Virus record (IMG/VR): IMGVR_UViG_2671180567_000004
Span: 1 to 4,037 of that record
Origin: a virus
Taxonomy: Duplodnaviria > Heunggongvirae > Uroviricota > Caudoviricetes
Length of the DNA: 4,037 nt
Strand: one strand, 5' to 3'
Within the stretch, counting starts at the first letter, position 1; each line of letters starts with the position of its first letter. A model generated the notes under the pieces. The model made no database searches. It was not told the DNA's origin and was given only the letters and a program-made list of their open reading frames with translations. Shown here in pieces: positions 1,201 through 2,875 of this stretch. The position numbers and the translations under genes were made by a program.

Positions 1201-2121
1201 TTAGTAGTGATGCAGTGAAGGAGGTAATTCTTTGTTCTTAAGTCTTACCCATGCAGAAAGATTCGTTGGTCCGTCTGGCTCATTAATATCAATATCTCGC
1301 GTGTGATTGATTAAAACGTCTCTCGCCATTCCGATAACATACGAGAACTCATGGCCGTAGTCGTAGCACCTGCCAGAATAGTTTGATTGAATTTGCTTTA
1401 GCGCCAGATACAGTTCGCGGAATAATGCCTGTGAGCGGTTGGCATAATCCCATAGCCATACAAGGCTGTTTGCTTCTTTTGCGGAAAGCTCGTTGGTGCT
1501 CTTCTCTTGTTTGCCGATTAACTCTCCTTCAAGCGGAACGCGAGCAGCAAGTGACAGAGCTTCGGTAAACTGCTCCTCGCTGATTTCTTTGTATGAACAC
1601 CCAAAATGAGATTTCAGTGACGACCACATGGTGATCATCGCCTTCGCCTGTTTTTCTTTTGGCAGAGACTGACCGCGACTCATGACGAGTTGTTTAATGG
1701 CTTCCTGCTGTTCAGTGGTGATTTTCCCCAGCAATGCCTTTTTAGCTTTGCGCGGGTTAATCACATGGCCTTTAGTCCAGTACTCGTAGAGCACATCGTC
1801 ACACTCTTCCTGATACTGGATTACCTTGTCGCGAATTTCAGGGCGGACTTTGTTAGGACTGATGGTTTGGAGCCAACCATTCAGTTTACGCAAAGCAAGG
1901 CAAATCATGGTCTGCATACCGCCAACTGAAGGTATTGCGATTTCCACAATACCTTTAGCAAATCTTTGTTTTAACTTTGTAAACTGTGAAGCCCAATCCA
2001 TACCCATTCCCTCAACGATAGGTTTCATTGGGGTGTACGGTTCGCCGTTGTGATTGACGACATAAAGCTCTGCGCCGTGGAATGGCACGTTGATAGTAGA
2101 TACCGCTGTTGCTATACTCAT
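1201..2121 (-). CDS. ant: phage antirepressor (Ant-like) protein, about 306 aa
   Basis: ORF-track entry 1201..2175 (324 aa from a GTG). I prefer the in-frame ATG at 2121..2119 because it is preceded by AAGGAA (complement of 2131..2136, 8-nt spacer) and the GTG at 2175 has no Shine-Dalgarno. The N-terminus MSIATAVSTINVPFHGAELYVVNHNGEPYTPMKPIVEGMGMDWASQFTKLK resembles phage antirepressor N-terminal domains (P22 Ant / Bro-N-like) from memory. Assignment is strengthened by the adjacent upstream Arc-like and divergent Mnt-like genes. Stop TAA at 1203..1201. Confidence 0.7.
   Translation of the reverse strand: MSIATAVSTINVPFHGAELYVVNHNGEPYTPMKPIVEGMGMDWASQFTKLKQRFAKGIVEIAIPSVGGMQTMICLALRKLNGWLQTISPNKVRPEIRDKVIQYQEECDDVLYEYWTKGHVINPRKAKKALLGKITTEQQEAIKQLVMSRGQSLPKEKQAKAMITMWSSLKSHFGCSYKEISEEQFTEALSLAARVPLEGELIGKQEKSTNELSAKEANSLVWLWDYANRSQALFRELYLALKQIQSNYSGRCYDYGHEFSYVIGMARDVLINHTRDIDINEPDGPTNLSAWVRLKNKELPPSLHHY
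2090..2118 (+). promoter_or_regulatory. candidate sigma70 promoter for an antisense (sar-like) RNA, inside the 5' end of ant
   Basis: Plus strand: -35 TTGATA (2090..2095), 17-bp spacer, extended -10 TGc TATACT (TG at 2110..2111, hexamer 2113..2118). Predicted start near 2125, reading antisense across the ant Shine-Dalgarno. Confidence 0.4.
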
Positions 2122-2124
2122 TTC

Positions 2125-2195
2125 GTTAGTTCCTTGGAAGTTACTGACATAGAAGCCCGATTTGTGTTCGCGCACTGTCGGGCTTCGCTATTTTT
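2125..2195 (+). ncRNA. candidate cis-antisense small RNA (sar-like, about 70 nt) complementary to the ant ribosome-binding site and arc-ant spacer
   Basis: Bounded by the candidate promoter at 2090..2118 and the plus-strand hairpin plus U-tract at 2152..2195. The transcript would contain UCCUUG, the complement of the ant Shine-Dalgarno. P22 immI is known to encode a short antisense RNA (sar) in the arc-ant spacer; this is an analogy, not a sequence match. Confidence 0.35.
2152..2195 (+). terminator. candidate unidirectional intrinsic terminator (plus strand) in the arc-ant spacer
   Basis: Inverted repeat GAAGCCCGA (2152..2160) / TCGGGCTTC (2178..2186) gives a 9-bp stem with a 17-nt loop that has an inner GTG/CAC pairing. 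On the plus strand it is followed by GCTATTTTTAT (T-run 2191..2195). On the minus strand no U-tract follows, so arc-to-ant read-through should not be stopped. Confidence 0.4.
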
Positions 2196-2361
2196 ATGTC
2201 CTAGCATTCTTCTCTCCAATCAGTCCGTACACTTTTCTCAATTGATAAATAAGTTCCGTGTTGAACTGTCGACACTCTTTTTCTCCATTTCTTTCAATCG
2301 CCTTCCTTACATCCTCTGGGAAACGAACCTTGCGTTGATACATGTCTTTTGCTTTTTCCAT
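2194..2361 (-). CDS. arc: Arc-like ribbon-helix-helix repressor, 55 aa (not in the ORF track)
   Basis: Hand translation of the minus strand from ATG 2361..2359 gives MEKAKDMYQRKVRFPEDVRKAIERNGEKECRQFNTELIYQLRKVYGLIGEKNART, stop TAA at 2196..2194. Strong Shine-Dalgarno AAGGAG with 5-nt spacer (complement of 2367..2372). The strand (KVRFPEDV), helix and N-cap (NTELIYQL) pattern closely resembles P22 Arc as I remember it (...NLRWPREV...NSEIYQRV...). It sits immediately upstream of ant on the same strand. Confidence 0.8.
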   Translation of the reverse strand: MEKAKDMYQRKVRFPEDVRKAIERNGEKECRQFNTELIYQLRKVYGLIGEKNART

Positions 2362-2399
2362 CTCCACTCCTTAAATAGCCTCACTATGGGGCAACCAAA

Positions 2400-2428
2400 A
2401 TTGTCACACCGTGCGTCATTGAAGTCAA
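2400..2428 (-). promoter_or_regulatory. candidate Pant-like sigma70 promoter driving arc-ant (minus strand)
   Basis: Minus strand reads TTGACT (complement of 2423..2428), 17-bp spacer, TGtGACAAT (extended -10; hexamer is complement of 2400..2405). Predicted start about 30 nt upstream of the arc ATG. The spacer contains CACCGTG (2407..2413). Confidence 0.45.
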
Positions 2429-2447
2429 CCCCACCGTGGGGCATAAT
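2419..2447 (+). promoter_or_regulatory. candidate Pmnt-like sigma70 promoter driving the Mnt-like gene (plus strand)
   Basis: Plus strand: -35 TTGAAG (2419..2424), 17-bp spacer, -10 CATAAT (2442..2447), about 37 bp before the ATG at 2485. Its -35 overlaps the -35 of the divergent minus-strand promoter back-to-back. The spacer contains the palindrome CCCCAC-C-GTGGGG (2429..2441). Confidence 0.5.
2429..2441. promoter_or_regulatory. candidate operator: 13-bp palindrome CCCCAC-C-GTGGGG
   Basis: Dyad symmetry (6-bp arms around a central C) between the two -35 elements and abutting the plus-strand -10. Its core CACCGTG recurs as a direct repeat at 2407..2413 inside the opposite promoter spacer. 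The size and symmetry suit a ribbon-helix-helix dimer or tetramer site. Confidence 0.45.
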
Positions 2448-2484
2448 TTACTTATTGTGAATTTTTCCTGTTTGGACTAATGGT

Positions 2485-2859
2485 ATGAGTAGAGAAGACC
2501 CTCAACTTCGGATTAGGCTTCCTGTTGAATTAAAAAAAATAATTGAAGCGTCATCAAAACAAAATAATCGTTCTATGAATGCTGAGATTGTCACTCTGCT
2601 TGAGTTGGCGATTCGTGTTTGTCGTGATTTTGGGCCGGAGGATGGTCCTATCGTTCAGCAGTTTAAAGAACAACTAGATGCGATAAACAGAAAATATGAT
2701 AAAAGCGAGCATGAAAAACTTATACCTCAACTTTTAGAAATCATAGAAAAACAGAAAAAACAAGTAGATAAACTTATTAGCATGGTTGAAAGATCAATTC
2801 CTCTTTCAGAGGAATATAAGCAGAAATATCTTGGTGATGACAACAAAAAACCCACCTGA
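2485..2859 (+). CDS. mnt: Mnt-like ribbon-helix-helix repressor with extended C-terminal helical region, 124 aa
   Basis: ORF-track entry 2485..2859. N-terminus MSREDPQLRIRLPVELKKIIEASSKQNNRSMNAEIVTLLELAI has the Arc/MetJ-type strand-helix-helix signature and resembles the P22 Mnt N-terminus as I remember it (RDDPHFNFRMP...NGRSMNSEL...). The C-terminal part (LIPQLLEIIEKQKKQVDKLISMVERS) is heptad-like and K/E-rich, consistent with an oligomerisation helix. It is divergent from arc-ant and convergent with L. Confidence 0.8.
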   Translation: MSREDPQLRIRLPVELKKIIEASSKQNNRSMNAEIVTLLELAIRVCRDFGPEDGPIVQQFKEQLDAINRKYDKSEHEKLIPQLLEIIEKQKKQVDKLISMVERSIPLSEEYKQKYLGDDNKKPT

Positions 2860-2866
2860 TGGTGGG
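2845..2866 (-). terminator. candidate intrinsic terminator on the minus strand just after the L stop codon
   Basis: Minus-strand RNA after the L stop (TAA, complement of 2876..2878) reads CCCACC-AUCA-GGUGGG followed directly by UUUUUU. Plus-strand coordinates: A-tract 2845..2850, stem arms 2851..2856 and 2861..2866. The hairpin overlaps the Mnt-like stop codon (TGA 2857..2859, in the loop). Confidence 0.5.
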
Positions 2867-2875
2867 CATAATCCA

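What the first reader, a model, noticed from the sequence alone, without database searches (positions are those of the whole stretch)
2400..2447. Back-to-back divergent promoters with overlapping -35 elements and repeated CACCGTG operator cores
The candidate Pant-like (minus) and Pmnt-like (plus) promoters share a 2-bp overlap of their -35 hexamers (2419..2428). Each spacer carries the heptamer CACCGTG (2407..2413 and 2432..2438); the second copy is the centre of a 13-bp perfect palindrome CCCCAC-C-GTGGGG. That geometry lets one or two RHH repressors switch both promoters from a site under 50 bp long. I recall P22 RHH operators having a similar CACGGTG-type core but cannot verify this from memory.
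Basis: partly seen in the sequence, partly recalled or inferred. Interest (0 to 1): 0.6.

Follow-up and report, generated by a model that had tools for sequence, protein, structure and literature searches.

The report
Three-operator switch controlling a prophage antirepressor
This is the control region of a P22-type antirepressor module in an E. coli prophage: two back-to-back promoters and three (not two) copies of a repressor-binding site. It is real and very strongly conserved, and it is a new layout of a textbook switch rather than a new kind of system.

Summary
CACCGTG sits at 2407-2413 and 2432-2438, CCCCACCGTGGGG at 2429-2441, and two sigma-70-like promoters overlap by 2 bp at their -35 hexamers.

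The three 17-bp sites are centred at 2385, 2410 and 2435, exactly 25 bp apart, and fit G.C.CAC.GTG.G.C.

The surrounding genes form a P22 immI-like module inserted between tail genes L and K: a Mnt-like gene on the + strand, and an Arc-like gene plus ant on the - strand.

Among 68 distinct relatives, block 2400-2449 is 94.7% identical pairwise. The flanking genes are about 75% identical, and about 50% at third codon positions.

Across Proteobacteria the same three-site layout recurs, and the outer half-site bases change together with the DNA-reading residues of the Mnt-like protein. P22's single Mnt operator shares the CCAC-N-GTGG core.

The most likely mechanism is that the Mnt-like repressor binds all three sites, shutting off the ant promoter and autoregulating its own. 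Where the Arc-like protein binds is unresolved.

The region differs from P22 in promoter geometry, in operator number, and in lacking a P22-type Arc operator. Verdict: a new variant of a known kind.

The parts
2377..2393 (.). Operator O1, AGCCTCACTATGGGGCA, centre 2385, at about +9 of the predicted ant-side transcript. In this window it carries a G-to-A change at the otherwise invariant +1 position (2386).
   Evidence: O1 is present in all 65 variants, with -7G, -5C, CAC, GTG, +5G and +7C invariant. The closest E. coli genome has G at this position.
2402..2418 (.). Operator O2, TGTCACACCGTGCGTCA, centre 2410. It covers the spacer and the TG-extended -10 of the ant-side promoter (about -17). 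It lies at about -44 of the mnt-side promoter.
   Evidence: Nearly invariant in 65 variants. Always 25 bp from O3.
2427..2443 (.). Operator O3, AACCCCACCGTGGGGCA, centre 2435, containing the perfect 13-bp palindrome 2429-2441. It covers the spacer and the edge of the -10 of the mnt-side promoter (about -19). It overlaps the -35 of the ant-side promoter by 2 bp (about -42).
   Evidence: Invariant except for the central base, which is C, G or A.
2400..2428 (-). Predicted ant-side (Pant-like) promoter: -35 TTGACT at 2428-2423, 17-bp spacer, TG at 2408-2407, -10 GACAAT at 2405-2400, start near 2393.
   Evidence: The -35 is TTGACA in most relatives, and the A and T of the -10 are invariant. The start site is inferred, not mapped.
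2419..2447 (+). Predicted mnt-side (Pmnt-like) promoter: -35 TTGAAG at 2419-2424, 17-bp spacer, -10 CATAAT at 2442-2447, start near 2454.
   Evidence: TTG and CATAAT are invariant or nearly so in 65 variants. The start site is inferred.
2485..2859 (+). Mnt-like ribbon-helix-helix repressor, 124 aa. The DNA-reading N-terminus is MSREDPQLRIRLP. The C-terminal part is predicted to be all-helical.
   Evidence: Pfam Arc domain, E = 3e-7. Best solved relative is P22 Mnt 1mnt, residues 3-43, E = 0.0015. Annotated as Arc family in RefSeq. Helices at 55-69, 73-104 and 109-115 in a low-confidence model.
2194..2361 (-). Arc-like small ribbon-helix-helix protein, 55 aa, first gene of the ant operon. Its reading strand is YQRKVRFP.
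   Evidence: Pfam Arc E = 0.0012, just below the family cut-off. Profile comparison with P22 Arc gives E = 1.5e-4 with Q9, R13 and P15 in register. Comparison with the window's Mnt-like protein gives E = 4.4e-5. Several close homologues carry PF03869 or the NCBI name 'Arc family'.
1201..2121 (-). Antirepressor Ant, the gene this switch controls.
   Evidence: Pfam P22_AR_N (6e-45) and P22_AR_C (5e-28). RefSeq coordinates.
2090..2196 (+). sar-like antisense RNA unit. The promoter TTGATA-17-TATACT (2090-2118) lies inside the 5' end of ant. The transcript would run about 2125-2196 across the ant ribosome-binding site, with two hairpins and a U run.
   Evidence: Promoter scan, 10 of 12 matches with TG. 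Fold -28.3 kcal/mol, z = -5.0. A hairpin lies at the same place between arc and ant in P22. The Rfam sar model gives no hit.

Best explanation
Region 2377-2447 is the control region of a P22 immI-type antirepressor module.

**Layout.** Two sigma-70 promoters stand back to back with their -35 hexamers overlapping. One drives the Arc-like gene and ant leftward. The other drives the Mnt-like repressor gene rightward. Three 17-bp palindromic operators of one class (G.C.CAC.GTG.G.C) are laid over them at 25-bp intervals.

**Proposed mechanism.** The Mnt-like ribbon-helix-helix repressor, probably as a tetramer like P22 Mnt, binds all three.
- At O2 it covers the -10 and spacer of the ant-side promoter.
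- At O1 it blocks the first bases of the ant-side transcript.
- Together these keep Ant off in the lysogen. They also free the mnt-side promoter from competition with the stronger ant-side promoter.
- At O3 it covers the spacer of its own promoter, so it limits its own synthesis.
- The Arc-like protein, made from the ant-side promoter after infection, most likely feeds back on sites of the same class.

**Shown:** the sequence anatomy, the conservation, the covariation of operator bases with the Mnt-like reading residues, and homology of protein and operator to P22 Mnt and Omnt.

**Inferred:** transcription starts, tetramer binding, order of site filling, promoter competition, and every statement about the Arc-like protein.
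For: **Gene set and order** match P22 immI: Mnt-like gene, divergent Arc-like gene plus Ant, and a sar-like unit.

**Homology to P22.**
- The Mnt-like N-terminus aligns with P22 Mnt residues 2-42.
- P22 Omnt, AGGTCCACGGTGGACCT, shares positions +/-1 to +/-4 and +/-7 with O1-O3.

**Position.**
- O1 is centred at about +9 of the ant-side promoter, as P22 Omnt is at about +8 of Pant.
- The three sites are the only matches to the family pattern in the window.

**Conservation.**
- In 65 variants, 2400-2449 is close to 2 bits per position, next to flanks at 0.1-0.4 bits.
- Mean pairwise identity among 68 distinct haplotypes is 94.7% for the block. It is 74-75% for the adjacent coding DNA, and 50-53% at third codon positions.

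**Protein-contact signature.** In O1 the conserved positions are +/-1, 2, 3, 5 and 7, while 0, +/-4, +/-6 and +/-8 vary freely.

**Covariation across Proteobacteria.** The three-site layout with a TTG..GTCAA -35 pair recurs. Half-site position -5 follows the reading residues of the Mnt-like protein:
- Q,R,R heads: C in 98 of 98 half-sites.
- Q,K,R heads: A in 44 of 46.
- K,M,R heads: G in 21 of 22.
- P22 (H,N,R): T.

**Deletion case.** A locus that lost the arc-ant side keeps O2 and O3 in front of mnt.
Against: - No binding or transcription data exist for this module. The promoters are consensus matches only.
- The covariation counts are not corrected for shared ancestry.
- The divergent small RHH often changes together with the Mnt-like protein. 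The covariation therefore cannot exclude that the small protein, rather than Mnt-like, reads some of the sites.
- O2 keeps fixed bases (C at +4, T at +6) at positions that vary freely in O1. This hints at an extra constraint on O2.
- The window's own O1 carries a change at an invariant core base, so it may bind poorly here.
- Tetramer formation is not shown. The structure model is of low confidence.
Confidence: 0.72

Rival explanations
1. Division of labour as in P22. O1 and O3 are Mnt-like operators, while O2, in the spacer of the ant-side promoter, is the Arc-like protein's own operator.
For: - O2 occupies the position of P22 Oarc, between -35 and -10 of Pant.
- O2 has distinctive, nearly invariant bases (TGTCACAC / GTGCGTCA) at positions that vary freely in O1.
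- No other element is conserved across all subfamilies that share the Arc-like reading strand, so the Arc-like site must be among O1-O3.
Against: - O2 fits the same invariant pattern as O1 and O3 with no mismatch.
- Natural O2 variants carry O1/O3-type right arms: L025 GTGAGGCA, L064 GTGGGGCA; L096 GTGAGGCA; L208 GTGGGGCA.
- In Xenorhabdus L092, O1 is identical to O2.
- In distant families all three sites are alike.
- Part of O2's invariance is explained by the overlapping TG-extended -10.
Confidence: 0.25
2. Shared-operator switch of the lambda CI/Cro kind. The Arc-like and Mnt-like proteins read the same three operators, with different affinity order and cooperativity.
For: - The DNA-facing residues of the Arc-like strand are Q, K, R. 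Those of the Mnt-like strand are Q, R, R.
- Some family members have Q, R, R in the Arc-like protein too: P0095, P0106 and P0118, and Morganella L095.
- In many distant loci the divergent small RHH has nearly the same reading strand as its Mnt-like partner. Examples are L117 RDDPKLLIRLP against REDPKFMLRLP, and also L099, L100, L115 and L143.
- Three operators at about 2.4 helical turns between divergent promoters resemble lambda OR.
Against: - P22 Arc and Mnt have similar reading residues yet bind unrelated operators (own knowledge; sequences). Similar heads therefore do not prove shared sites.
- The N-terminal arm of the Arc-like protein (MEKAKDMY) differs from that of the Mnt-like protein (MSREDP).
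- Other distant loci pair different heads: L113, L124 and L139.
Confidence: 0.4
3. The palindromes act as nucleic-acid structures (RNA 5' hairpin or DNA cruciform) rather than as protein sites, or the repeats are chance.
For: - O1 lies in the predicted 5' leader of the Arc-like mRNA. In some relatives it is a perfect palindrome that could fold.
- Two CACCGTG copies in 4 kb is not improbable on its own.
Against: - O2 and O3 lie upstream of both predicted starts, so they would not be transcribed.
- Only 15 of 65 O1 variants keep Watson-Crick symmetry at +/-4 (counted from the list). Pairing is therefore not what is conserved.
- Chance is excluded by conservation far above that of the coding flanks and by the shuffle test.
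Confidence: 0.03

Closest known systems
Phage P22 immI region (mnt, Pmnt/Pant, Omnt, Oarc, arc, sar, ant)
   Same: - Same genes in the same order and orientation.
- The Mnt-like N-terminus is homologous to P22 Mnt.
- The operator is 17 bp, palindromic, and has the same CCAC-N-GTGG core.
- One operator lies at about +8/+9 of the ant promoter.
- The divergent promoters cannot both be occupied.
- An antisense RNA unit lies between arc and ant.
   Different: - There are three Mnt-type operators, whereas P22 has a single CAC.GTG site (the P22 row added to the scan found fewer than two; sequence).
- There is no TAGA-box Arc operator. An Mnt-type site fills that position.
- The promoters touch only at their -35 hexamers, with starts about 61 bp apart. 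P22 interleaves -10 over -35, with starts about 37 bp apart.
- Outer operator bases and reading residues differ: C at -5 with Q,R,R here, T at -5 with H,N,R in P22.
- The Mnt-like protein is 124 aa, against 83 aa for P22 Mnt.
- The module sits between lambda-type tail genes L and K, not in the P22 late operon.
Lambda OR (OR1-OR2-OR3 between PR and PRM, read by CI and Cro)
   Same: - Three tandem operators of one class, spaced a little over two helical turns apart.
- They lie between and over two divergent promoters, with a repressor gene on each side.
- One site falls near -42/-44 of the maintenance repressor's own promoter.
   Different: - The proteins are ribbon-helix-helix, not helix-turn-helix.
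- It controls an antirepressor, not the main lytic operon.
- Sharing of the operators by both proteins is not shown here.
- This is a functional analogy only, not family membership.
The other ant module at the same L-K position in Stx phages (for example Stx2a_WGPS8, 1717, YYZ-2008)
   Same: - Same insertion point.
- Ant and L are about 93% identical.
- Same Mnt-like / Arc-like / ant gene order.
   Different: - The Arc-like and Mnt-like proteins are unrelated in sequence.
- The repeated motifs are different (TGGCA / TGCCA family).
- The predicted promoter layout is different.
- The regulatory cassette has evidently been swapped as a unit.

Membership tests
P22 immI antirepressor-control region | Mnt-type RHH repressor gene transcribed divergently from an arc-ant operon | tested here: met
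   ORFs and RefSeq annotation. Pfam Arc domain, E = 3e-7. Best solved relative is P22 Mnt.
P22 immI antirepressor-control region | Antirepressor with P22_AR N- and C-terminal domains | tested here: met
   PF10547 at 6e-45 and PF10548 at 5e-28.
P22 immI antirepressor-control region | Small Arc-type RHH protein as the first gene of the ant operon | tested here: met
   The Pfam Arc match is just under the cut-off (19.1 against 20.4 bits). hhalign against P22 Arc gives E = 1.5e-4 in full register. Close homologues carry PF03869 or the NCBI name 'Arc family'. The structure model is of low confidence but shows the two helices.
P22 immI antirepressor-control region | Mnt operator: 17-bp palindrome with a CCAC-N-GTGG core just downstream of the ant promoter start | tested here: met
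   O1 is centred at about +9. P22 Omnt is centred at about +8. The window's copy has one core change. All relatives have an intact core.
P22 immI antirepressor-control region | Separate Arc operator (21 bp, TAGA boxes) between -35 and -10 of the ant promoter | tested here: not met
   No TAGA box occurs in 2400-2428 (read). The spacer holds O2, an Mnt-type site.
P22 immI antirepressor-control region | Interleaved promoters, with the -10 of Pmnt lying over the -35 of Pant | tested here: not met
   P22 annotation: Pant -35 at 302-307 and Pmnt -10 at 307-312. Here only the two -35 hexamers overlap, at 2423-2424. No interleaved alternative was found by the scan.
P22 immI antirepressor-control region | sar antisense RNA across the ant ribosome-binding site | tested here: inconclusive
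   A promoter and a two-hairpin transcript lie in the right place. The Rfam scan of the window gave no match at E up to 1.
P22 immI antirepressor-control region | Mnt tetramer formed through a C-terminal helical domain | tested here: inconclusive
   The C-terminal 70 residues are predicted helical, but pLDDT is 55 and the model is a monomer. No sequence similarity to the P22 Mnt C-terminus was found.
Lambda OR-type tripartite operator switch | Three tandem operators of one class over two divergent promoters | tested here: met
   Centres at 2385, 2410 and 2435. The layout recurs in relatives.
Lambda OR-type tripartite operator switch | Both divergently encoded repressors bind all three operators with different preference | not testable with these tools
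   There are only indirect hints from the similar reading residues.
Lambda OR-type tripartite operator switch | Helix-turn-helix CI and Cro proteins | tested here: not met
   Both proteins are ribbon-helix-helix.

The most novel reading that the evidence does not exclude
The three-operator, back-to-back-promoter layout, read by a long Mnt-like and a short Arc-like RHH paralogue that share the same sites, would be the general design of antirepressor control across Proteobacteria. It would be a ribbon-helix-helix counterpart of lambda OR. P22's well-studied one-Omnt-plus-one-Oarc arrangement would then be a derived exception. The concerted change of reading residues and operator bases would also give a usable recognition code for this RHH family (residue two before the invariant Arg: R with C, K with A, N with T at half-site position -5).
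Probability: 0.3. Interest if true: 0.65.

Novelty: new variant of a known kind. Interest (0 to 1): 0.5.

Why it matters
P22 immI is the textbook case for ribbon-helix-helix repressors and for antirepressor control of prophage induction. This work suggests that most of its relatives are wired differently, including modules in E. coli, Klebsiella, Salmonella, Yersinia and many non-enteric Proteobacteria. They use three copies of one operator class and promoters that touch only at their -35 elements.

That gives a compact natural switch of about 67 bp whose logic can be tested with two small proteins. It also provides a set of matched protein/operator variants for working out how RHH beta-strands read DNA.

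Ant modules of this position also occur in Shiga-toxin phages, though with a different regulatory cassette. Understanding their control therefore bears on prophage induction and cross-talk.

Tried and rejected
- **Rfam.** A scan of the whole window at E up to 1 gave no RNA family, including no match for the sar-like unit.
- **Arc-like protein against solved structures.** The only hits below E = 0.01 were designed proteins and eukaryotic primase, which I take to be spurious. A family profile gave only marginal Arc hits, E = 0.1-0.3.
- **Structure prediction.** AlphaFold2 models of both repressors were of low confidence (pLDDT 64 and 55). I ran no fold search on them.
- **Literature.** Searches for the operator strings and for a described three-operator RHH antirepressor switch found nothing relevant in the held library. 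The primary P22 papers (PMC30133, PMC286564) are not held. Details of which Mnt residues contact DNA therefore rest on my own knowledge.
- **Conserved block 2454-2465.** I considered this block, or the AT-rich near-palindrome over the mnt -10 and start, as a separate Arc-like operator. I rejected it because it is missing from the Yersinia, Proteus, Xenorhabdus and TL-2011b variants, which encode the same Arc-like reading strand.
- **P22-style interleaved promoter.** TTGTCA at 2401-2406 has no usable -10 at 16-18 bp (read; not reported).
- **Serratia/Xenorhabdus loci as a natural 'Mnt only' test.** Their divergent partner is not an RHH. However, L109 has a short RHH with the same reading strand elsewhere in the locus, so the test is not clean.

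Full report
**1. Is the observation there?**

Yes. Reading the window:
- CACCGTG occupies 2407-2413 and 2432-2438. These are the only two copies in the 4037 bases.
- 2429-2441 is the perfect palindrome CCCCAC-C-GTGGGG.
- The consensus scan reports only two promoter-like sites in the intergenic region.
  - On the + strand: TTGAAG-17-CATAAT (2419-2447).
  - On the - strand: TTGACT-17-GACAAT with a TG extension (2428-2400).

CCTCACTATGGGGCA at 2379-2393 is a third copy of the same element, 50 bp from the palindrome. The three 17-bp sites are:
- O1, 2377-2393
- O2, 2402-2418
- O3, 2427-2443

They are centred at 2385, 2410 and 2435, exactly 25 bp apart.

**2. What surrounds it?**

The window is a lambda-type tail region read on the - strand: M, L, then K (Pfam). 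It is 99.9% identical to a prophage of E. coli CFSAN018748.

Between L and K sits an inserted module with the gene order of phage P22 immI:
- a 124-aa Mnt-like RHH gene on the + strand (2485-2859);
- a 55-aa Arc-like gene on the - strand (2194-2361);
- an antirepressor with both P22_AR domains on the - strand (1201-2121).

The best solved relative of the Mnt-like protein is P22 Mnt, aligned over residues 3-43.

The Arc-like protein is a weaker match:
- Pfam Arc gives E = 0.0012, just under the cut-off.
- A family profile aligns with P22 Arc in full register (Q9, R13, P15) at E = 1.5e-4.
- The same profile aligns with the window's own Mnt-like protein at E = 4.4e-5.

Between the Arc-like gene and ant there is a strong + strand promoter (2090-2118). 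It is followed by two hairpins and a U run (z = -5.0). This is the place and shape of P22's sar antisense RNA, although Rfam does not match it.

**3. Is it more than chance?**

Two CACCGTG copies in 4 kb occur in 23 of 200 shuffles, so the heptamer count alone is weak. The family evidence is strong.

I collected relatives through the Arc-like protein (80 viral loci) and through the Mnt-like N-terminus (80 genome loci and 80 viral loci).
- All 94 loci of the enterobacterial family analysed carry O2, the TTG..GTCAA -35 pair and O3 in fixed register (65 distinct variants).
- From 2400 to 2449 almost every position is invariant.
- The flanks fall to 0.1-0.4 bits (2394-2399 and 2466-2484).
- The only variable positions inside the block are 2401, the two middle bases of the overlapped -35 pair (2422-2423), and 2435, the centre of the palindrome.

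Among 68 distinct haplotypes:
- The block has 94.7% mean pairwise identity.
- The adjacent coding DNA has 74-75%.
- Third codon positions have 50-53%.

A non-coding stretch held far more tightly than the genes beside it is under selection.

Anchored on O1, all 65 variants have G at -7, C at -5, G at +5, and C at +7 (64 of 65). The CAC and GTG cores are kept with three exceptions. Positions 0, +/-4, +/-6 and +/-8 vary freely. O2 fits this pattern with no mismatch, and O3 has one (-7 is A, where the ant-side -35 hexamer overlaps).

In the window the pattern with at most 1 mismatch hits only these three places. The expected number is 0.13, and 0 of 200 shuffles reached 3. The pattern was derived from the family, which includes this window, so that test is supportive rather than independent.

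**4. Who reads the sites?**

P22's Mnt operator is AGGTCCACGGTGGACCT. The window's class is TGCCCCAC-N-GTGGGGCA. Both are 17 bp long, with the same bases at +/-1 to +/-4 and +/-7 and different bases at +/-5 and +/-6.

The Mnt-like reading strand is REDPQLRIRLP, against RDDPHFNFRMP in P22. Taking the usual RHH register (own knowledge), the DNA-facing residues are Q,R,R against H,N,R.

Across the 80 genome loci from many proteobacterial orders, the same layout recurs: two or three CAC-N-GTG sites and a -35 pair between the last two. The outer half-site bases follow the reading residues:

| Reading residues | Base at half-site position -5 |
|---|---|
| Q,R,R | C in 98 of 98 half-sites |
| Q,K,R | A in 44 of 46 (with C at -4) |
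| K,M,R | G in 21 of 22 (with T at -4) |
| H,N,R (P22) | T |

Loci whose arm lacks the Arg (KQTDPQFKLR) have a different core, ACCTA-N-TAGGT.

All copies within a locus change together. This is the main evidence that the Mnt-like protein reads all three sites. It is not corrected for phylogeny.

One locus (L232) has lost the arc-ant side at the left edge of O2. It keeps O2 and O3 in front of mnt.

**5. The Arc-like protein**

This is the unresolved part. Only O1-O3 and the promoter hexamers are conserved across every subfamily that shares the Arc-like reading strand YQ(R/K)(K/R)(V/I)RFP. If the protein acts here, it must therefore use sites of this class.
- Its DNA-facing residues (Q,K,R) differ from those of the Mnt-like protein by one conservative change.
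- They are identical (Q,R,R) in some family members.
- In many distant loci the divergent small RHH has nearly the same reading strand as its Mnt-like partner.

That favours shared operators.

Against this, P22 Arc and Mnt also have similar reading residues yet bind unrelated operators. In addition, O2 keeps fixed bases at positions that are free in O1. That could mark O2 as the Arc-like protein's preferred site, since it lies where P22 has Oarc.

Natural O2 variants with O1/O3-type arms argue that O2 is not a separate class: L025 and L064, L096, L208. So does a Xenorhabdus locus whose O1 equals O2 (L092). I leave both readings open.

**6. Likely mechanism**

The following is inferred from geometry and from P22. 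With starts near 2393 and 2454:

| Site | Relative to ant-side promoter | Relative to mnt-side promoter |
|---|---|---|
| O1 | about +9 | about -69 |
| O2 | about -17 | about -44 |
| O3 | about -42 | about -19 |

- Repressor on O2 and O1 would block the ant-side promoter at its -10 and at the start of the transcript.
- Because the two -35 hexamers overlap, only one polymerase can sit there. Silencing the stronger ant-side promoter (-35 TTGACA in most relatives) should therefore help the mnt-side promoter. This matches what is reported for P22 Mnt (own knowledge).
- Repressor on O3 would shut the mnt-side promoter, giving autoregulation.
- Arc-like protein made after infection would close the ant-side promoter again. 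The sar-like RNA would add translational control of ant.

**7. Structure rivals**

The palindromes are not conserved as stems. Only 15 of 65 O1 variants keep Watson-Crick symmetry at +/-4. O2 and O3 lie upstream of both predicted starts.

**8. Comparison with the known**

This is an immI-type module by gene content, by protein homology and by operator class. Two defining features of the P22 control region were tested and are not met:
- There is no TAGA-box Arc operator.
- The promoters are not interleaved. P22 puts the Pmnt -10 over the Pant -35, whereas here only the two -35 hexamers touch.

In addition, P22 has one CAC.GTG site and this family has three.

In function the layout resembles lambda OR, but the proteins are RHH.

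The same L-K insertion point in Stx phages carries a near-identical ant with an unrelated regulatory cassette. The regulatory unit is evidently exchangeable.

I found no description of this three-operator arrangement or of these operator sequences in the held literature. Much of the older P22 literature is not held.

**9. Verdict**

- The element is a real, strongly conserved regulatory switch.
- It is a new variant of a known kind, of moderate interest.

Noticed in passing
window 2090-2196 (+ strand): A sar-like antisense RNA unit. A strong promoter (TTGATA-17-TATACT with TG) lies inside the 5' end of ant. The transcript would cover the ant ribosome-binding site and fold into two hairpins plus a U run (-28.3 kcal/mol, z = -5.0). 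The Rfam scan gave no match.
   Followed up: partly
window 2386: O1 carries A where all 64 other family variants have G, at the invariant +1 core position. It is the only difference from E. coli CFSAN018748 within 2190-2620. It could be an operator-weakening mutation or a sequencing error.
   Followed up: partly
L003 1715-1830 (Stx2a_WGPS8) compared with window 2362-2484: Stx phages carry ant (about 93% identical) at the same L-K position. Their Arc-like and Mnt-like proteins are unrelated, and they have a different repeated motif (TGGCA / TGCCA, three copies) and a different predicted promoter layout. The regulatory cassette has been swapped as a module.
   Followed up: partly
L002 2472-2510 (phage TL-2011b): The Mnt-like gene has an extra G after codon 9 compared with otherwise identical loci (L082). 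This truncates the reading frame, so that phage may lack a working Mnt-like repressor.
   Followed up: no
window 2454-2465: A second conserved block, ATTGTGAATTTT, lies at the predicted start of the mnt transcript. Together with the -10 hexamer it forms a near-palindrome, CAnAAT-N6-ATTnTG. It is conserved in the E. coli / Klebsiella / Salmonella-type variants. It is absent from the Yersinia, Proteus, Xenorhabdus and TL-2011b variants. Its function is unknown.
   Followed up: partly
window 2850-2867: A hairpin directly after the Mnt-like gene reads as an intrinsic terminator on the - strand (T run), that is, for transcription coming from tail gene L. It is conserved in the unrelated WGPS8 cassette and shares GGGCATAAT with O3.
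   Followed up: no
L232 1100-1200: In this viral contig the arc-ant side has been replaced right at the left edge of O2. The Mnt-like gene keeps only O2 and O3, and the ant-side -35 has decayed.
   Followed up: partly
L109 908-1675 (Serratia oryzae); similar divergent partner in L101, L104, L106: The divergent partner of the Mnt-like gene is a 58-aa non-RHH protein. In L109, where the ORFs were listed, it is followed by a Rha/Ant-like gene, and a short RHH with the same reading strand (RDDPQLRVRIP) lies convergent downstream of mnt. The three operators are still present.
   Followed up: partly
L085-L164, upstream of position 1201: In Alphaproteobacteria the last two operators are 36-37 bp apart instead of 25. 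Several systems use a different core (ACCTA-N-TAGGT) together with a Mnt-like arm that lacks the Arg.
   Followed up: no
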